A DNA stretch of 27,716 nucleotides from a virus (taxonomy: Duplodnaviria; Heunggongvirae; Uroviricota; Caudoviricetes): the IMG/VR virus record IMGVR_UViG_2534681772_000017; one strand, 5' to 3'. The translations under genes were made by a program, and so were the position numbers. This document shows, in pieces, positions 173-7,874 of this stretch; position 1 is the first letter of the stretch; each line of letters starts with the position of its first letter. Below the pieces are notes generated by a model. It made no database searches. It was not told the DNA's origin and was given only the letters and a program-made list of their open reading frames with translations.

Positions 173-1222
173 TTATGCAAGCTCTGCCGCCACATTGTCG
201 CCAACATATAGCGACAACGGATTAAGGGTAACAGCTTGCTCAAGATGGTCAGGCGCAAAGTGTGCATACTTCATTGTTTCTCGAATGTTGGCATGTCCGA
301 GTATTTTCTGCAGCACCAGTATATTTCCGCCGTTCATCATAAAATGCGCACCAAAGGTATGACGCAAAACATGAGTCTTCTGCCCTTCCGTCAGCTCAAT
401 GTTCGTAAGCTTGAGCATCTTCTTAAAGTCTTGATAGCAGGGTTTGAACATTCTCCCCTGACGTTCAGACAACTCGTCGTAGAGCCATTTAGGAATCGGA
501 ACCGTGCGATTCTTCTTACCTTTGGTTTTGGTGAAAGTCAGCTTGCATGGGGAAAGTTGGGGACGTGTAAGTCTCTCGGCTTCTCCCCATCGTGCGCCGG
601 TAGCCAAGCAAACCTTAACAATCATCGTAAGATTTTCTTTGCCATATTGTTCACAGGCTCGGAACAGCTCCGGGAGCTGAGACAAAGTTAGCCAGGACAT
701 TTCTTTCTCAGCTTCTTTGAATACGCGAATCCCGTCCAGTGGATTGGGTAAACTCCACTCCCCTAATCGTCGCAGTTCATTGAACACCGCTTCGAGGTAT
801 TGCTGCTCGCGATTGACAGTTATAGGTTTGGCGATCCACTTCGCCGGGTCTTTGTGATAGCCGTTGTCTATTTCGCCACGTAATCGACGGTCACGGTAAT
901 GAGCCCAATCTTTAGCGGTAAGACGAGATGCAATAGGGTCGCCCAACCCATTACATACAATTTGAAGCTTAGCTAACCGCGACTTACTGGCGACCAGCGC
1001 CTGTCCATGTAAATTATGCCAAAGCTGGATAATCTCACTTAAGCGTCGGCGGTCTTCTTTCTTACCGAGCCACGGCTTATCCTCACTCTCATTTTTCGTG
1101 AATGCCTCGAATGCCTCGGCCTCGCCTTTGGTGTTAAACTGTCGACGTATACGCCGCCCCTCCCGGCCATTTGGATAAAGCTCACAGAGCCATTTGCCAT
1201 TTTTCTGCTTACTAACAGTCAT
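173..1222 (-). CDS. int: Tyrosine site-specific integrase, P2/186 type
   Basis: 349-aa ORF with the C-terminal catalytic region of tyrosine recombinases (HVLRHTFGAH ... LGHANIRETMKYAH). Sits at the prophage edge, as in P2/186. SD GGGGTGA upstream of the ATG. Confidence 0.93.
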   Translation of the reverse strand: MTVSKQKNGKWLCELYPNGREGRRIRRQFNTKGEAEAFEAFTKNESEDKPWLGKKEDRRRLSEIIQLWHNLHGQALVASKSRLAKLQIVCNGLGDPIASRLTAKDWAHYRDRRLRGEIDNGYHKDPAKWIAKPITVNREQQYLEAVFNELRRLGEWSLPNPLDGIRVFKEAEKEMSWLTLSQLPELFRACEQYGKENLTMIVKVCLATGARWGEAERLTRPQLSPCKLTFTKTKGKKNRTVPIPKWLYDELSERQGRMFKPCYQDFKKMLKLTNIELTEGQKTHVLRHTFGAHFMMNGGNILVLQKILGHANIRETMKYAHFAPDHLEQAVTLNPLSLYVGDNVAAELA

Positions 1223-1251
1223 TACATCACCCCGACCGAGAAGCCATTTTC

Positions 1252-1656
1252 TTACTGCAAATCTTTCATTGTAGTAACATGCGTGTTCGACAAAATTGTG
1301 ATTTTAGACTGTTCTTCTTGTTCTTCTCCGGCCTTATCACAAGTTGCTTTTGGCTTCTCAAGCACATAACCCATAGCACTAAATTTATTGAGAATTCGAA
1401 CAGATGTAGTGTTTTTCAGATACGCAGTGTTTTCCTTATGTAGCCATGCAGGGGAACAAACGCTATAAACTGCGGTATCATAAATTTCAGGCGTAATACT
1501 TGCGGCATCCAAAACAACTGTAATCACGCCATTACTATCTTTTATCGACAGTGGTTGCATTTCGTTAAAGGATTTCTTCAGTACAGATAAGTTAGAGGGT
1601 TGAGCTGCTACTGTAAAAGAAGCGAGTAAAGCCAGAGCAAAAATAGAACGTTTCAT
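1252..1656 (-). CDS. Small secreted/periplasmic protein of unknown function (candidate lysogeny-expressed moron)
   Basis: Start refined to the internal Met (MKRSIFALALLASFTVAAQ...), which carries a classic Sec signal peptide and an AAGGA SD. The 134-aa product lies between cI and int on the same strand. Locally AT-rich compared with the rest of the prophage. No family recognised. Confidence 0.6.
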   Translation of the reverse strand: MKRSIFALALLASFTVAAQPSNLSVLKKSFNEMQPLSIKDSNGVITVVLDAASITPEIYDTAVYSVCSPAWLHKENTAYLKNTTSVRILNKFSAMGYVLEKPKATCDKAGEEQEEQSKITILSNTHVTTMKDLQ

Positions 1657-1669
1657 TATCGCATCATCC

Positions 1670-2512
1670 TTAGATATGTTTTTCCAGAGTAAATACAACA
1701 GCACCAGATGGTGTGATTTCTGATAGGTTGCATTCAAAATCAACAGACTTATTTGATAGCCTGACTTTATTACCCGGCAGTCGCACAACGTCGAAAACGT
1801 CGAACGCGCCATCTATCCCGATGAGCCAACGGCCATTGCCGATTTTGCATGCTGAATTATCGACAAGCCAAGATGAGCTAACGCCATCTACAAAAACCAA
1901 ATCATCAGAGTTAGCAGGAATCATTGATGGGTCAGGTTGCCAACGCCCAGCGTCTTTTAGCTCACCAGATTCAAGGCGGGATTTTTTTATCGTTAAAATG
2001 TCCGAAAAGCTAGCCTCCTTACTTTCTCGCATTTTCCCCTTTCCGGTCGCTAACCATTCCAGCGATACACCAGTATCAAGCGCGCATGTCACAACCACAT
2101 CACCGGGGAAGAAATCTCGTCTTACCCAGGTGCTGATAGTGCCTGAGGAGATATCCAACAAATCCCCAAGCTCCTTTTGCATTGTAAAACCATAGGCGTC
2201 AAGGATGCGCCTTAAAACAGGTTTTCCACCACTCGCCAAAATCTCGTCATAAAGTGCTTTTCCTTTCAACGGTGACGAATCTTGCAAATTCAAATTGGAA
2301 ATTTGACCAGTCAGCAGCCAGTTTAAATCAGCACCAGTATCTAATGAGCACTGAATGATGGCTTTGCCTGGAAAACTGTTTCGCTGAACCCAAGTGCTGA
2401 CGCTGTTTGACGGGACGCCAAGCACTTCCGCCAAAGCCTTTTGCGTGCTGACACCATACGCCGAACTTATCCGCTCAATCACATCTTGCGTATTCAAATC
2501 TTCATCATTCAT
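1670..2512 (-). CDS. cI: 186-type CI immunity repressor with tandemly duplicated N-terminal HTH domain
   Basis: 280 aa. Two consecutive copies of a Phage_CI_repr-like motif (ISSAYGVSTQKALAEVLGV...STWVQRNSFPG...CSLDTGADLNWLLTG and ILDAYGFTMQKELGDLLDI...STWVRRDFFPG...CALDTGVSLEWLATG), then a roughly 115-aa C-terminal domain. Divergent from the lytic operon, the usual immunity-region layout. Confidence 0.82.
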   Translation of the reverse strand: MNDEDLNTQDVIERISSAYGVSTQKALAEVLGVPSNSVSTWVQRNSFPGKAIIQCSLDTGADLNWLLTGQISNLNLQDSSPLKGKALYDEILASGGKPVLRRILDAYGFTMQKELGDLLDISSGTISTWVRRDFFPGDVVVTCALDTGVSLEWLATGKGKMRESKEASFSDILTIKKSRLESGELKDAGRWQPDPSMIPANSDDLVFVDGVSSSWLVDNSACKIGNGRWLIGIDGAFDVFDVVRLPGNKVRLSNKSVDFECNLSEITPSGAVVFTLEKHI

Positions 2513-2625
2513 TTATCAATCACTCAAAATCGATTTACAGGAACTCATTTTCGATTTAAAGTGGCATTCATCGACCAAGATGCACACCACTGCACTACAT
2601 TTCAAACAACAGGAGATAATGCGAT
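2513..2625. promoter_or_regulatory. Divergent immunity-region promoter/operator (pR/pL-like switch)
   Basis: 113-bp AT-rich gap between the divergent cI and apl-like genes. Contains the 10-bp palindrome AAATCGATTT (2527-2536), a second TCGATTT element 21 bp downstream (2551-2557) and a third TCGA core at 2571-2574. Confidence 0.6.
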
Positions 2626-2997
2626 ATGTCAGATGCAAAATCAATCTCGACGCACGACTCGCAAAACTCACAAAATCAAACTGTGCTGTTAGATCCAACG
2701 CAGTTTGATGCCATCGTTACCGCCATGCTTCCAGCTCTGCAGACAATGATTCGCTCCGCAATGTCCGACACCATGACAGTGAAAGACTTCGCCGCTACTC
2801 GCGGTGTTAGCGAGCGTCTGGTCTGGCAATGGCTCGATGAGGGCATCCTTCTCAAAGCTCCGACCAAAGACTTTTCCAACAAAGAGGAAGCCGCTAAACG
2901 AAGCCGAACCCTCGTAAACGTAAAAGCATGGCGCGATAAGCTGACTCAACAAGCGATTGATTGTCGCTACATCGACCAGCGCACCGCTCTTAACTGA
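2626..2997 (+). CDS. Apl/Cox-like small DNA-binding protein (lytic-switch regulator / excisionase-like)
   Basis: First gene of the rightward operon, divergent from cI. AGGAGA SD 9 nt upstream. Contains a probable HTH segment (TVKDFAATRGVSERLVWQWLDEGIL). Function assigned by position and motif, not strong identity. Confidence 0.5.
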   Translation: MSDAKSISTHDSQNSQNQTVLLDPTQFDAIVTAMLPALQTMIRSAMSDTMTVKDFAATRGVSERLVWQWLDEGILLKAPTKDFSNKEEAAKRSRTLVNVKAWRDKLTQQAIDCRYIDQRTALN

Positions 2998-3029
2998 ATT
3001 TGATTATGCAAGTTAGAGGGAATTTAACC

Positions 3030-3539
3030 ATGTTTGATTTTCAGGTTTCCAAACATCCCCACTATGACGATGCATGCCGCATTTTCGCGCAGCGTCACAA
3101 CATGGCGAAGCTGGCCGAGCGTGCGGGTATGAACGTTCAAACGTTACGTAACAAGCTCAACCCGGAACAGCCTCACCAGTTTACGCCGCCTGAATTGTGG
3201 CTACTGACTGACCTGACCGAAGACTCAACCCTCGTTGATGGTTTTTTGGCGCAGATTCATTGCCTGCCATGCGTGCCGGTTAATGAGCTGGCTAAAGACA
3301 AATTGCAGTCTTATGTCATGCGAGCAATGCGTGAACTCGGCGAGCTGGCGAGCGGTGCGGTATCTGATGAACGTCTGACCTCTGCCCGTAAGCACAACAT
3401 GATTGAAAGCGTTAATTCTGGCATTCGCATGTTGTCGTTGTCGGCGCTGGCGCTGCATGCGCGTCTGCAGACTAATCCCGCTATGTCGAGCGTCGTCGAT
3501 ACCATGAGCGGTATTGGCGCATCCTTCGGGCTGATTTGA
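3030..3539 (+). CDS. cII: Phage regulatory protein CII (186 CII / CP76 family)
   Basis: Start set at MFDFQVSKHPHYDD (SD GAGGGA 8 nt upstream), which closely resembles the 186 CII N-terminus as I recall it. Occupies the expected position after apl. Confidence 0.8.
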   Translation: MFDFQVSKHPHYDDACRIFAQRHNMAKLAERAGMNVQTLRNKLNPEQPHQFTPPELWLLTDLTEDSTLVDGFLAQIHCLPCVPVNELAKDKLQSYVMRAMRELGELASGAVSDERLTSARKHNMIESVNSGIRMLSLSALALHARLQTNPAMSSVVDTMSGIGASFGLI

Positions 3540-3546
3540 GGTGCGT

Positions 3547-3747
3547 ATGCTGAAAAGTGAACCGTCATTCGCGTCTCTGCTCGTTAAGCAAAGCCCTGGC
3601 ATGCACTACGGACACGGCTGGATCGCAGGTAAGGACGGCAAGCGCTGGCACCCGAGCCGCTCACAGGCTGATTTACTGGCTGGCCTCTCTACTCAAAAGC
3701 AGGGGGAATCATGGCTATCGAAGCTGTTTCCGCGACTGTTACGCTGA
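3547..3747 (+). CDS. Small early protein, possibly Fil-like (host filamentation / division inhibitor)
   Basis: 66-aa ORF with SD GAGGTG. Motif HYGHGWI...GKRWHP.RSQ..LL resembles Fil-family proteins of P2-like prophages as far as I recall; sits where 186 fil sits. Low certainty. Confidence 0.4.
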   Translation: MLKSEPSFASLLVKQSPGMHYGHGWIAGKDGKRWHPSRSQADLLAGLSTQKQGESWLSKLFPRLLR

Positions 3748-7401: not shown

Positions 7402-7435
7402 TTGCCAATACGTGCTACTGTATAAATATACAGTA
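7402..7435 (+). promoter_or_regulatory. SOS-regulated promoter with LexA box
   Basis: TACTGTATAAATATACAGTA at 7416-7435 is a perfect CTGT-N8-ACAG LexA operator. It overlaps an AT-rich -10 region and lies downstream of a -35-like TTGCCA (7402-7407). Directly upstream of the 7455 ORF. Confidence 0.85.
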
Positions 7436-7454
7436 ACCCTATGGGAGGGATTTC

Positions 7455-7637
7455 ATGGTTGGCGAACATTTCAGCCGAACGCAGCAAAAGTGGGCTTGTG
7501 TGCAATTTATTGCCGAGGTATCTCTGATTGCAAACTGCAAGCCATCAGACTTAAAGCTCGCGCTCACTCTCATTGCAGACCTAGCAAACAGCGAAAATAA
7601 CGAAACCGAAGATGATATTTTTTATAAGGCTGATTAG
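7455..7637 (+). CDS. Small SOS-induced ORF, possible N-terminal part of a Tum-like antirepressor
   Basis: 60-aa ORF with SD GGGAGGGA 5 nt upstream, immediately downstream of the LexA box. Ends at a TAG that is in frame with the DinI-like ORF that follows. Confidence 0.45.
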   Translation: MVGEHFSRTQQKWACVQFIAEVSLIANCKPSDLKLALTLIADLANSENNETEDDIFYKAD

Positions 7638-7640
7638 ATT

Positions 7641-7874
7641 ATGAGAATCAATATCACGTTGGATAAAGAGCAAAAAATTAGTCAGGCAACGTTGGATGCG
7701 CTTGAGGCTGAGCTGTACCGCAATCTGCAACCTATTTACCCAAAGACCGCTATCCGCATTCGCAAGGGCTCCGCAAATGGCGTTGAGCTAAGCGGTTTGA
7801 AACTGGACGAAGATAAAAAACGAGTAATGGAAATCATGCAGCAGGTATGGGAGGACGATAGCTGGTTGCATTAA
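7641..7874 (+). CDS. DinI-family protein (DinI/Tum C-terminal domain-like)
   Basis: 77 aa (MRINITLDKEQKIS...LDALEAELYRNLQPIYP...EIMQQVWEDDSWLH) with the DinI-like pattern of an N-terminal MRIE/N beta strand and an acidic, Trp-containing C-terminal helix. In the same reading frame as the 7455 ORF. Confidence 0.8.
   Translation: MRINITLDKEQKISQATLDALEAELYRNLQPIYPKTAIRIRKGSANGVELSGLKLDEDKKRVMEIMQQVWEDDSWLH

What the first reader, a model, noticed from the sequence alone, without database searches (positions are those of the whole stretch)
1670..2512. CI repressor with a tandemly duplicated DNA-binding domain (single-chain pseudo-dimer)
The 280-aa repressor holds two consecutive copies of a roughly 60-residue 186-CI-type HTH module, about 45% identical by eye, joined by a 30-residue linker and followed by a C-terminal domain. 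As I recall, 186 CI (about 192 aa) has one such domain and binds DNA as a dimer and higher oligomers. An internal duplication would create a covalently linked pair of DNA-binding domains and implies a different operator geometry.
Basis: seen in the sequence. Interest (0 to 1): 0.6.

Follow-up and report, generated by a model that had tools for sequence, protein, structure and literature searches.

The report
Phage repressor with two DNA-binding heads
The immunity repressor of this 186/PSP3-like prophage really carries two helix-turn-helix domains in one chain, and comparison with about 85 related loci suggests that the variable first head reads the phage-specific operators at the lytic promoter while the almost invariant second head reads a conserved palindrome at distant sites.

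Summary
The 280-aa CI (1670-2512, minus strand) has two full Phage_CI_repr domains: D1 (residues 10-70) and D2 (99-162). They are 48% identical to each other. A 186-type C-terminal domain follows.

It is not an assembly artefact. Phage PSP3 and six other isolated phages have the same architecture, as do more than 120 protein clusters and 59 Enterobacterales species genomes. I found no paper that describes the duplication; one paper read PSP3 CI as having a "longer C-terminal domain".

New findings:
- D2 is almost invariant (92% mean pairwise identity although synonymous sites are saturated). D1 is variable (63%, about 26 recognition-helix types).
- Single-domain CIs with a D2-like head have the palindrome AACTTGCAAATGCAAGTT as their pR operator.
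- In two-domain phages that palindrome lies inside cI (FL-like), at the apl-end/cII-start junction (FR-like) and on the late-activator promoter. The pR operators instead change with D1.

Best reading: a two-headed 186-type repressor with divided labour, not an intrachain pseudo-dimer. D1 would give pR immunity specificity. D2 would bind the conserved distal and late-promoter sites.

This is a new variant of a known kind. The mechanism is inferred from sequence comparison, not from experiment.

The parts
1670..2512 (-). cI gene, 280 aa: tandem-HTH 186/PSP3-type immunity repressor
   Evidence: ORF. Pfam finds 2x PF07022 plus PF16452. 71% identical to PSP3 CI, which is annotated as immunity repressor. 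Foldseek best hit is 186 CI 2fjr_A, E = 3e-16.
2303..2485 (-). D1: first HTH domain (residues 10-70), variable, recognition helix SNSVSTWVQR
   Evidence: PF07022 at 88.3 bits when scanned alone. Mean pairwise identity among homologues is 63%. About 26 recognition-helix types occur in 65 loci. dN/dS is 0.1-0.2. 62 of 66 D1 domains form one pure clade.
2219..2302 (-). D1-D2 linker (residues 71-98). The first half is disordered in the model. The second half is a conserved helix LKGKxLYDEI..GGK, whose end matches the N-terminal tail of single-domain relatives.
   Evidence: pLDDT is below 50 at residues 72-80 and there is a helix at 85-93. G84, L87, Y88, G95 and G96 are invariant. DEILASGGK aligns with the N-terminus MQLDELEGGK of the 196-aa CIs.
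2027..2218 (-). D2: second HTH domain (residues 99-162), nearly invariant, recognition helix SSGTISTWVRR
   Evidence: PF07022 at 99.7 bits when scanned alone. Mean pairwise identity is 92%, the highest of any part of the protein. pN is 0.05-0.06 while pS is 0.6-0.9. 76% identical to the N-terminus of single-domain CIs from Rahnella/Ewingella prophages. D2 domains cluster with single-domain N-terminal domains.
1712..1990 (-). C-terminal 186-type oligomerisation domain (residues 175-267)
   Evidence: PF16452 at 67 bits against a cut-off of 27. The model superposes on the 186 CI C-terminal domain 2fkd_A with TM 0.87 and rmsd 2.1 A.
2279..2296 (.). FL-like site ATCTTGCAAATTCAAATT inside cI (codons 73-78, D1/linker junction). 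It matches the D2-type palindrome AACTTG-N6-CAAGTT with 2 mismatches and lies about 250 bp left of pR.
   Evidence: It is one of the only two matches with 2 mismatches or fewer in 27.7 kb. At the homologous spot, 55 of 65 loci have the core TTGCAWWTGCAA with at most 1 mismatch, against 0.03% in background windows. Third-codon-position conservation peaks here in the whole gene, permutation p = 0.0004, and GCA is used for Ala in 53 of 54 sequences against 25% usage gene-wide.
2483..2500 (.). Weak D2-type-like site ATCTTGCGTATTCAAATC in cI codons 5-10 (3 mismatches); low confidence
   Evidence: It shares 12 of 15 positions with the FL and FR sites of this window (repeat I2). It is not conserved in other immunity types.
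2522..2563 (+). pR operator region: two 21-bp units, ACTCAAAATCGATTTACAGGA and ACTCATTTTCGATTTAAAGTG, that cover the -35 and -10 of pR. This is the immunity-specific part of the switch and the presumed D1 target.
   Evidence: Direct repeat with 21-bp spacing, which can also be read as a 43-bp inverted repeat. These are the only two matches in the window. The sequence changes with the D1 helix type across 26 types, while sequence to the right of pR is conserved. 186 pR operators are likewise two helical turns apart (PMC3675496).
2534..2562 (+). pR: -35 TTTACA, 17-bp spacer, -10 TAAAGT; early lytic promoter
   Evidence: It is the only sigma-70-like match in 1100-3700. The same hexamers and spacing occur in nearly all related loci.
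2626..2997 (+). Apl/Cox analogue (123 aa), first gene of the rightward operon
   Evidence: ORF. The counterpart in phage Midge is annotated transcriptional repressor Cox. No Pfam family.
2997..3014 (.). FR-like site AATTTGATTATGCAAGTT (1 mismatch to the D2-type palindrome). It overlaps the apl-analogue stop codon and lies 16 nt before cII, as FR does in 186.
   Evidence: Best match in the window. 24 of 65 related loci have at most 2 mismatches at the same place, and 7 are perfect. 186 FR lies at the apl stop and 15 nt before cII.
3030..3539 (+). cII (169 aa), lysogeny-establishment activator
   Evidence: PF06892 Phage_CP76 at 159 bits.
7418..7637 (+). LexA box CTGTATAAATATACAG (7418-7433) followed by tumA-like antirepressor gene (7455-7637, 60 aa): the presumed SOS induction route for this non-cleavable repressor
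   Evidence: Sequence. The protein is 100% identical to PSP3 TumA. PSP3 tumA is reported to encode the antirepressor activity (PMC3121763). CI has no Peptidase_S24 domain.

Best explanation
This is a 186-type CI immunity repressor that gained a second HTH domain at its N-terminus by duplication. It now works as a two-headed protein with divided labour.

- **D2 plus the C-terminal domain** correspond to a complete ancestral single-domain CI. D2 keeps the ancestral specificity for the palindrome AACTTGCAAATGCAAGTT. As D2.D2 pairs from two chains, it binds the conserved sites flanking the switch (FL inside cI, FR at the apl-end/cII-start junction) and, outside this window, the -35 of the late-activator (ogr/pag/B) promoter.
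- **D1**, tethered by a flexible linker of about 28 residues, has diverged into many recognition-helix types. It binds the type-specific operators over the -35 and -10 of pR and so sets immunity. In this window these operators are two units 21 bp apart, each containing TCGATTT.
- **The C-terminal domain** is assumed to oligomerise as in 186 (dimers forming a wheel). One particle could then hold pR through D1 heads and FL/FR through D2 heads, looping the DNA.
- **Induction** is by the LexA-controlled TumA antirepressor, not by self-cleavage.

Shown by computation: the domain architecture, its distribution, the conservation asymmetry, the two site classes and where they lie. Inferred: which head binds which site, the oligomeric state and the looping.
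For: **Architecture**
- Two PF07022 domains and one PF16452 domain.
- D2 plus the C-terminal domain are colinear with 186 CI. The C-terminal fold matches 2fkd with TM 0.87.

**Asymmetry between the heads**
- Mean pairwise identity is 92% for D2, 63% for D1 and 71% for the C-terminal domain.
- D2 has pN of about 0.05-0.06 while its pS is 0.6-0.9, so selection rather than recent exchange keeps it constant.
- There are 26 D1 helix types. D2 has 11 helix variants, of which SSGT(I/M/V)STW accounts for 52 of 65 loci.

**Identity of the D2 site**
- 196-aa single-domain CIs whose N-terminus is 76% identical to D2, with the same recognition helix, carry AACTTGCAAATGCAAGTT in the pR spacer in 20 of 21 loci.

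**Where that palindrome lies in two-domain phages**
- FL-like spot: core with at most 1 mismatch in 55 of 65 loci and in 23 of 26 D1 types, against 0.03% in background windows.
- Synonymous positions at that spot are frozen: GCA in 53 of 54 Ala codons, AAT in 47 of 48 Asn codons, permutation p = 0.0004.
- FR-like spot: at most 2 mismatches in 24 of 65 loci.
- Late-activator promoter: the site overlaps the -35 upstream of ogr/pag in Midge, PSP3, SW9 and SEN1, which cover three D1 types.
- pR itself is D2-like in only 2 of 26 D1 types.

**pR operators**
- They differ between D1 types and are mostly palindromes of their own kind, for example ATCGCATTTGCGAT, TCGCATTTTGCGA, ATCCATATGGAT and TGCCGCATAATGCGGCA.

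**Parallel with 186**
- 186 has the same site layout (pR, FL inside cI, FR at the apl/cII junction, pB). Its FL/FR/pB motif TTCAC-N5-GTGAA differs from its pR sites. Its pR operators are two turns apart and loop to FL/FR (PMC3675496).

**Induction**
- tumA with a perfect LexA box is present.
Against: - There is no binding experiment. The assignment of heads to sites rests on conservation logic and on the operator of single-domain relatives.
- In this window's own immunity type the pR units are asymmetric direct repeats (ACTCA...TCGATTTA). Its FL and FR sites have one good half (CTTGCA) and one degenerate half (TCAAAT). This could equally mean mixed D1+D2 contacts.
- Counts of D2-type matches in the window as a whole are not above chance (6 found against 6.1 and 9.5 expected). 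Only their placement and the cross-genome conservation carry weight.
- I found no clear co-variation between the rarer D2 helix variants (for example STAT) and changes in the FL/FR sites.
- Kosakonia-type and Serratia-type pR palindromes (TCGCAAATGCGA) resemble the D2 site, so D2 might also contribute at pR.
- The late-promoter site lies outside this window, which ends inside gene D.
- Wheel formation is assumed from a C-terminal domain only 36% identical to that of 186.
Confidence: 0.55

Rival explanations
1. Intrachain pseudo-dimer. D1 and D2 of one chain bind the two adjacent half-sites of each operator, so every operator is a composite of a conserved D2 half and a type-specific D1 half.
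For: - In this window the two pR units are asymmetric 21-bp direct repeats, ACTCA-N3-TCGATTTA.
- Its FL, FR and S2 sites share CTTGCA-N4/5-TCAAAT, one D2-like half and one different half.
- A GAT(C/T) element next to the -10 recurs in nearly all immunity types.
- The flexible 28-residue linker would allow such binding.
Against: - In most family members both operator classes are palindromes, which implies pairs of identical heads.
- Perfect 18-bp D2-type palindromes occur at FL (L050) and FR (PSP3, SW9).
- Single-domain relatives use the same palindrome with one kind of head.
- The bases just before GATC at pR vary with the D1 helix rather than staying fixed.
- AlphaFold predicts no D1-D2 interface (pTM 0.41).
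Confidence: 0.2
2. D2 is conserved mainly as a protein-protein surface (TumA antirepressor docking, or pairing of heads), and only D1 matters for DNA recognition. The conserved palindromes would then serve some other factor or purpose.
For: - TumA is 100% identical in all isolated phages with the two-domain CI, across three D1 types. Otherwise it gives only a weak partial match (44% identity) in one Yersinia phage in the phage collection.
- The 186 Tum is reported to bind CI and block DNA binding (PMC3121763).
Against: - Across the wider family TumA is only 30-92% identical, while D2 and its recognition helix stay fixed.
- D2 keeps every residue that is invariant in the HTH family.
- Its helix is identical to that of single-domain CIs, which must bind DNA with it and whose pR operator is the very palindrome found at FL, FR and pB.
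- The palindrome is held by selection on synonymous sites inside cI.
Confidence: 0.15
3. One of the two copies is a decaying, non-functional remnant, or the duplication is an assembly or sequencing artefact.
For: None beyond the a priori possibility. D1 is the more divergent copy.
Against: - The same architecture is present at 41-100% identity in 7 isolated phages, more than 120 protein clusters and 59 species genomes.
- The two copies share only 48% of residues, so they cannot be an assembly repeat.
- dN/dS is 0.1-0.2 for D1 and about 0.05 for D2.
- Both copies score 88-100 bits against a 22-bit cut-off.
Confidence: 0.02

Closest known systems
Coliphage 186 CI repressor (PDB 2fjr, 2fkd)
   Same: - Same HTH family and same C-terminal domain; D2 plus the C-terminal domain are colinear with it.
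- Same gene order: int, cI, then divergent apl-analogue and cII.
- pR operators two helical turns apart, a site inside cI, a site at the apl/cII junction and a site on the late-activator promoter.
- Induction by a LexA-controlled Tum antirepressor.
   Different: - 186 CI has one HTH domain in 192 aa, which serves both its pR sites and its FL/FR/pB sites. From my own recollection, Shearwin et al. 2002 reported that this single HTH binds two distinct recognition sequences.
- Here there are two HTH domains, each about 41% identical to the 186 domain, and the two site classes appear to be split between them.
- The operator sequences are unrelated to those of 186.
Phage PSP3 CI (AAN08403) and the CIs of SEN1, SW9, SI22, Midge, RCIP0057 and vB_EcoM-613R3
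   Same: Same two-domain architecture, 69-89% identical, same switch layout and same TumA. The window's protein belongs to this group. An essentially identical protein (reported as 100% identity; the cluster representative shown differs from the window at one residue, G for S at residue 168) is on record from Klebsiella oxytoca.
   Different: - PSP3, SEN1 and 613R3 share one D1 immunity type and SW9 and SI22 another. The window shares its D1 type with Midge and RCIP0057.
- None of these repressors has been studied experimentally as far as I could find. Nilsson et al. 2011 described PSP3 CI as having a longer C-terminal domain (PMC3448106).
Single-domain 196-aa CIs of Rahnella, Ewingella, Franconibacter and Chimaeribacter prophages (loci L066-L086)
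   Same: The N-terminal domain is 76% identical to D2 and has the same recognition helix. Their pR operator AACTTGCAAATGCAAGTT is the palindrome found at FL, FR and pB of the two-domain phages.
   Different: They have no D1, and the palindrome sits in the pR spacer itself. They look like the ancestral state.
Other proteins with two tethered HTH units
   Same: Two HTH units in one chain are joined by a flexible linker. Examples are POU-domain factors and engineered single-chain 434 repressors (both from my own knowledge) and the two-HTH XRE repressor of C. difficile phage phiCDKH01 (PMC11172241). Tandem PF07022 domains also occur fused to Peptidase_S24.
   Different: In those cases the two units (as far as known) contact adjacent half-sites of one composite site. 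Here the evidence points to two separate site classes, each read by like-with-like pairs within an oligomeric repressor.

Membership tests
186-type CI repressor (Phage_CI_repr + Phage_CI_C) | N-terminal PF07022 helix-turn-helix domain | tested here: met
   Present twice, at 88.3 and 99.7 bits against a cut-off of 22. The model has five helices per domain.
186-type CI repressor (Phage_CI_repr + Phage_CI_C) | C-terminal PF16452 beta domain | tested here: met
   67.2 bits against a cut-off of 27. Foldseek against 2fkd_A gives TM 0.87 and rmsd 2.1 A.
186-type CI repressor (Phage_CI_repr + Phage_CI_C) | One DNA-binding domain per chain (about 190 aa) | tested here: not met
   Two domains in 280 aa. 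This is the variant feature.
186-type CI repressor (Phage_CI_repr + Phage_CI_C) | Switch context: cI upstream of int, divergent from an apl/cox-like gene and cII, with pR between them | tested here: met
   int 173-1222, cI 1670-2512, apl analogue 2626-2997, cII 3030-3539 with PF06892. pR at 2534-2562.
186-type CI repressor (Phage_CI_repr + Phage_CI_C) | Operators at pR two turns apart, plus distal FL/FR sites and a site at the late-activator promoter | tested here: inconclusive
   Sequence motifs are at the expected places and are conserved across genomes, but no binding data exist. The late promoter lies outside the window.
186-type CI repressor (Phage_CI_repr + Phage_CI_C) | Assembly of dimers into a 14-mer wheel that wraps and loops DNA | not testable with these tools
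   Only a single-chain model could be made. The C-terminal domain is 36% identical to that of 186.
186-type CI repressor (Phage_CI_repr + Phage_CI_C) | Not self-cleaving; inactivated by a LexA-controlled Tum antirepressor | tested here: met
   Met at sequence level only. There is no Peptidase_S24 domain. tumA is 100% identical to PSP3 TumA and follows a perfect LexA box.
Single-chain pseudo-dimeric HTH repressor (two heads of one chain on one operator) | Operators made of two unlike adjacent half-sites, one for each head | tested here: inconclusive
   The window's own sites are asymmetric, but most family members have palindromic sites of two separate classes.
Single-chain pseudo-dimeric HTH repressor (two heads of one chain on one operator) | Defined packing of the two heads against each other | tested here: not met
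   The AlphaFold model has pTM 0.41 and linker residues 72-80 below pLDDT 50, so no D1-D2 interface is predicted. This is a weak test because only a monomer without DNA was modelled.

The most novel reading that the evidence does not exclude
The duplication split a dual-specificity repressor into two specialised heads. In 186 a single HTH has to recognise two unlike site classes. In the PSP3 lineage, D2 keeps the ancestral palindrome at the looping sites (FL, FR) and at the late-gene master promoter. D1 is then free to evolve new pR specificities.

Immunity could therefore diversify (about 26 types) without re-evolving the long-range architecture or late-gene control. Each repressor dimer would also carry two independent DNA-binding heads and could bridge two DNA segments by itself.
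Probability: 0.45. Interest if true: 0.75.

Novelty: new variant of a known kind. Interest (0 to 1): 0.6.

Why it matters
The 186 switch is one of the few systems where long-range looping, DNA wrapping on a protein wheel and promoter interference are understood quantitatively.

This natural relative has a second DNA-binding head, and its two operator classes appear to be physically separated onto two domains. That gives a direct way to test three things:
- how the 186-type wheel chooses between pR, FL/FR and late-promoter sites;
- how new immunity specificities arise while the rest of the circuit stays fixed;
- whether a repressor dimer with two heads can loop DNA on its own.

It also corrects the record for PSP3-like phages, whose CI was described as having a longer C-terminal domain. 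These prophages are common in Klebsiella, Salmonella, Enterobacter, Serratia and plant-associated Enterobacterales.

Tried and rejected
- **Artefact or decayed copy.** Rejected by the wide distribution and by dN/dS.
- **D2 invariance due to recent recombination.** Rejected because synonymous sites in D2 are saturated.
- **D2 invariance explained by an invariant TumA.** TumA is 100% identical among the isolated phages but only 30-92% identical across prophage loci, so this is at most a partial explanation.
- **Co-variation between rarer D2 helix variants (STAT, APGT) and FL/FR half-sites.** No clear pattern emerged.
- **Whole-window enrichment of the D2-type motif.** Not above chance. Only position and cross-genome conservation are informative.
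- **An exact model of the window-type pR operator.** It can be read as a direct 21-bp repeat, as a 43-bp inverted repeat or as ATCG-N6-CGAT with a degenerate left half. I could not decide from sequence.
- **A promoter for cI (pL).** The scan found none. My by-eye candidate TTGAAA-17-CATCTT on the minus strand is unverified.
- **Literature searches.** I searched for PSP3 CI, PF07022 and tandem HTH phage repressors. No description of this duplication turned up. The library lacks most subscription journals, so absence is not proof.
- **AlphaFold monomer.** It gave no information on inter-domain geometry.
Full report
**1.

The minus-strand ORF 1670-2512 encodes a 280-aa protein. Pfam finds Phage_CI_repr (PF07022) in two stretches and Phage_CI_C (PF16452) at residues 175-267. 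Scanned separately, residues 10-70 (D1) score 88.3 bits and residues 99-162 (D2) score 99.7 bits, against a cut-off of 22.

D1 and D2 align without gaps over 60 residues with 29 identities (48%). The score lies 34 standard deviations above shuffled controls. D2 plus the C-terminal domain align colinearly with 186 CI (2fjr residues 8-182, E = 4e-22). Each head is 41% identical to the 186 N-terminal domain.

An AlphaFold model built on 64 homologues shows three folded domains: five helices, five helices and a beta domain. Residues 72-80 and 161-170 are floppy, and pTM is 0.41. Its best structural matches are 186 CI (2fjr_A, E = 3e-16) and the 186 C-terminal domain (2fkd_A, TM 0.87, rmsd 2.1 A).

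**2. It is not an artefact and not rare**

The window is a 186/PSP3-like (Eganvirus-type) prophage. It ends inside tail gene D.
- The same two-domain CI is encoded by phages PSP3 (71% identity, annotated "immunity repressor"), SEN1, SW9, SI22, Midge, RCIP0057 and vB_EcoM-613R3.
- The 120 best protein clusters, out of 1016 hits, are all 270-287 aa. They include an essentially identical protein from Klebsiella oxytoca; the cluster representative shown differs from the window at one residue.
- A scan of one genome per species returned 59 two-domain loci. They come from Enterobacteriaceae, Erwiniaceae, Pectobacteriaceae and Yersiniaceae, at 41-88% identity.
- In a library clustered at 50% identity, 27 of the 150 best hits to a single-domain profile carry two or three full domains. 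Among these are unrelated architectures such as two HTH domains plus Peptidase_S24.

I found no paper describing the duplication. Nilsson et al. 2011 state that PSP3 CI has "a longer C-terminal domain" (PMC3448106).

**3. The two heads evolve very differently**

Mean pairwise identity among homologues is as follows.

| Region | Mean pairwise identity |
|---|---|
| D2 | 92% (the most conserved part) |
| C-terminal domain | 71% |
| D1 | 63% |
| Linkers | about 58-61% |

Between the window and PSP3, SW9 or SEN1, D2 has pS of 0.6-0.9 but pN of 0.05-0.06. It is therefore held by strong purifying selection, not by recent exchange. D1 has dN/dS of 0.1-0.2, so it is also functional.

The D1 recognition helix comes in 26 versions in 65 loci. 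The D2 helix is SSGT(I/M/V)STW in 52 of the 65 loci. Both heads keep all residues that are invariant in the family.

**4. Origin**

D2 domains cluster with the N-terminal domains of single-domain CIs. The closest are 196-aa proteins of Rahnella, Ewingella, Franconibacter and Chimaeribacter prophages. They are 76% identical to D2 and have the same recognition helix. Their N-terminal tail MQLDELEGGK matches the end of the D1-D2 linker (DEILASGGK).

D1 domains form one nearly pure clade (62 of 66). None of the single-domain sequences sampled is closer to D1 than to D2. The nearest outside relatives of D1 are D2-like domains, at 53-55% identity. The simplest history is one duplication of the N-terminal roughly 88 codons of a D2-type CI, followed by divergence of the new N-terminal copy.

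**5. Two classes of DNA site**

*The D2-type site.* In the single-domain relatives the pR spacer holds the palindrome AACTTGCAAATGCAAGTT in 20 of 21 loci. In the two-domain phages this same palindrome is generally not at pR: only 2 of 26 D1 types have a D2-like core there. It sits instead at three fixed places.

- **Inside cI, at the D1/linker junction.**
  - The core TTGCAWWTGCAA has at most 1 mismatch in 55 of 65 loci and in 23 of 26 D1 types. The background rate is 0.03%.
  - This stretch has the highest third-codon-position conservation in the whole gene, permutation p = 0.0004.
  - Codon choice is frozen: GCA in 53 of 54 Ala codons against 25% usage gene-wide, AAT in 47 of 48 Asn codons, and CTT in 29 of 30 Leu codons.
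- **At the junction between the apl-analogue stop codon and cII.** 24 of 65 loci have at most 2 mismatches to AACTTG-N6-CAAGTT and 7 are perfect.
- **Over the -35 of the promoter of the late activator gene (ogr/pag).** This holds in Midge, PSP3, SW9 and SEN1, which represent three D1 types.

These are the positions of FL, FR and pB in 186. In 186 those sites also share one motif (TTCAC-N5-GTGAA) that differs from the pR operators.

*The pR operators.* They change with the D1 helix type and are mostly palindromes of their own. Examples are ATCGCATTTGCGAT, TCGCATTTTGCGA, ATCCATATGGAT and TGCCGCATAATGCGGCA. Sequence to the right of pR is shared by all types.

**6. In this window**

- pR is TTTACA, a 17-bp spacer, then TAAAGT, at 2534-2562.
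- Two 21-bp units cover its -35 and -10: ACTCAAAATCGATTTACAGGA (2522-2542) and ACTCATTTTCGATTTAAAGTG (2543-2563). They are the only matches in the window. The spacing of two helical turns is that of the 186 pR operators (PMC3675496).
- The two best matches to the D2-type palindrome in 27.7 kb are FR (2997-3014, AATTTGATTATGCAAGTT, 1 mismatch) and FL (2279-2296, ATCTTGCAAATTCAAATT, 2 mismatches). A weaker third match lies at 2483-2500.
- Over the whole window the motif is not more frequent than chance. The argument rests on position and on conservation across genomes.
- The window's own sites are asymmetric, so mixed D1+D2 contacts remain possible for this immunity type.

**7. Induction**

CI has no peptidase domain. 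A 60-aa ORF at 7455-7637 is 100% identical to PSP3 TumA. It follows a perfect LexA box at 7418-7433 and is followed by a DinI-family ORF. This is the split tum arrangement reported for PSP3 (PMC3121763).

TumA is identical in all isolated two-domain phages. It is only 30-92% identical across prophage loci, whereas D2 stays fixed. TumA docking can therefore not be the main reason for D2 invariance.

**8. Interpretation**

The best-supported model is a two-headed 186-type repressor.
- D2, the ancestral head, reads the conserved palindrome at the looping sites and at the late-activator promoter.
- D1, the duplicated and diversified head, reads the immunity-specific pR operators.
- Both act as like-with-like pairs within C-terminal-domain-mediated oligomers.

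It is favoured only by the asymmetry of this window's own sites.

Two conclusions are inference from conservation and from single-domain relatives: which head binds which site, and whether a wheel forms. Footprinting with head-specific mutants and D1 swaps would settle both.

**9. Verdict**

- It is a new variant of a known kind.
- The protein has been in the databases since PSP3 was deposited but appears undescribed.
- Interest is moderately high because it offers a natural dissection of the 186 switch logic.

Noticed in passing
window 7418-7874: Split tum module as in PSP3. It consists of a perfect LexA box CTGTATAAATATACAG (7418-7433), a tumA-like 60-aa ORF (7455-7637, no Pfam family) and a DinI-family ORF (7641-7874, PF06183 at 84 bits). 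TumA is 100% identical in every isolated phage with the two-domain CI but only 30-92% identical in prophage loci.
   Followed up: partly
window 2626-2997 (+): The first gene of the rightward operon, where 186 has apl, encodes a 123-aa protein with no Pfam hit. Its start and leader are conserved across immunity types. The PSP3 counterpart was called a singleton without detectable domains (PMC3448106), and Midge annotators call theirs Cox.
   Followed up: partly
window 1252-1656 (-): A 134-aa ORF with a signal-peptide-like N-terminus lies 13 bp downstream of cI and upstream of int. It has no significant Pfam hit. It occupies the slot where PSP3, Midge and SW9 carry a 112-aa DUF2511 periplasmic protein, so it looks like a swapped lysogenic-conversion cargo gene.
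   Followed up: no
related loci, pR -10 region; window 2551-2562: In most two-domain-CI phages a GATC (a Dam methylation site) directly abuts the pR -10 (..CGATC|TAnnnT). The window and the Kosakonia type have GATT instead. Whether Dam methylation affects repressor or RNA polymerase binding there is unknown.
   Followed up: no
window 2565-2604: A third TCGA element (ATCGAC, 2570-2575) lies 20 bp after the second pR unit, inside the stretch conserved among immunity types. A by-eye candidate for the leftward cI promoter (TTGAAA, 17 bp, CATCTT on the minus strand, about 2604-2576) would face pR as pL does in 186. The promoter scan did not report it.
   Followed up: no
window 2990-3039: Direct repeats TTAACTGAATTTGATT and TTAACCATGTTTGATT lie 34 bp apart around the cII start and overlap the FR-like site. 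This is the place where 186 has the CII-activated pE promoter.
   Followed up: no
proteins P0163, P0167, P0170, P0171, P0208, P0227, P0228: Distant proteins also carry two or three PF07022 domains, fused either to the 186-type C-terminal domain or to a Peptidase_S24 (LexA/lambda-type) domain. Tandem CI-type heads therefore occur in several different architectures, possibly through independent duplications.
   Followed up: partly
loci L071, L076, L077 (Rahnella): These are D2-type CI genes with a longer match (708 nt, about 236 aa) and no ATG near the expected start. The D2-type palindrome is again in the pR spacer. I did not resolve their architecture.
   Followed up: no
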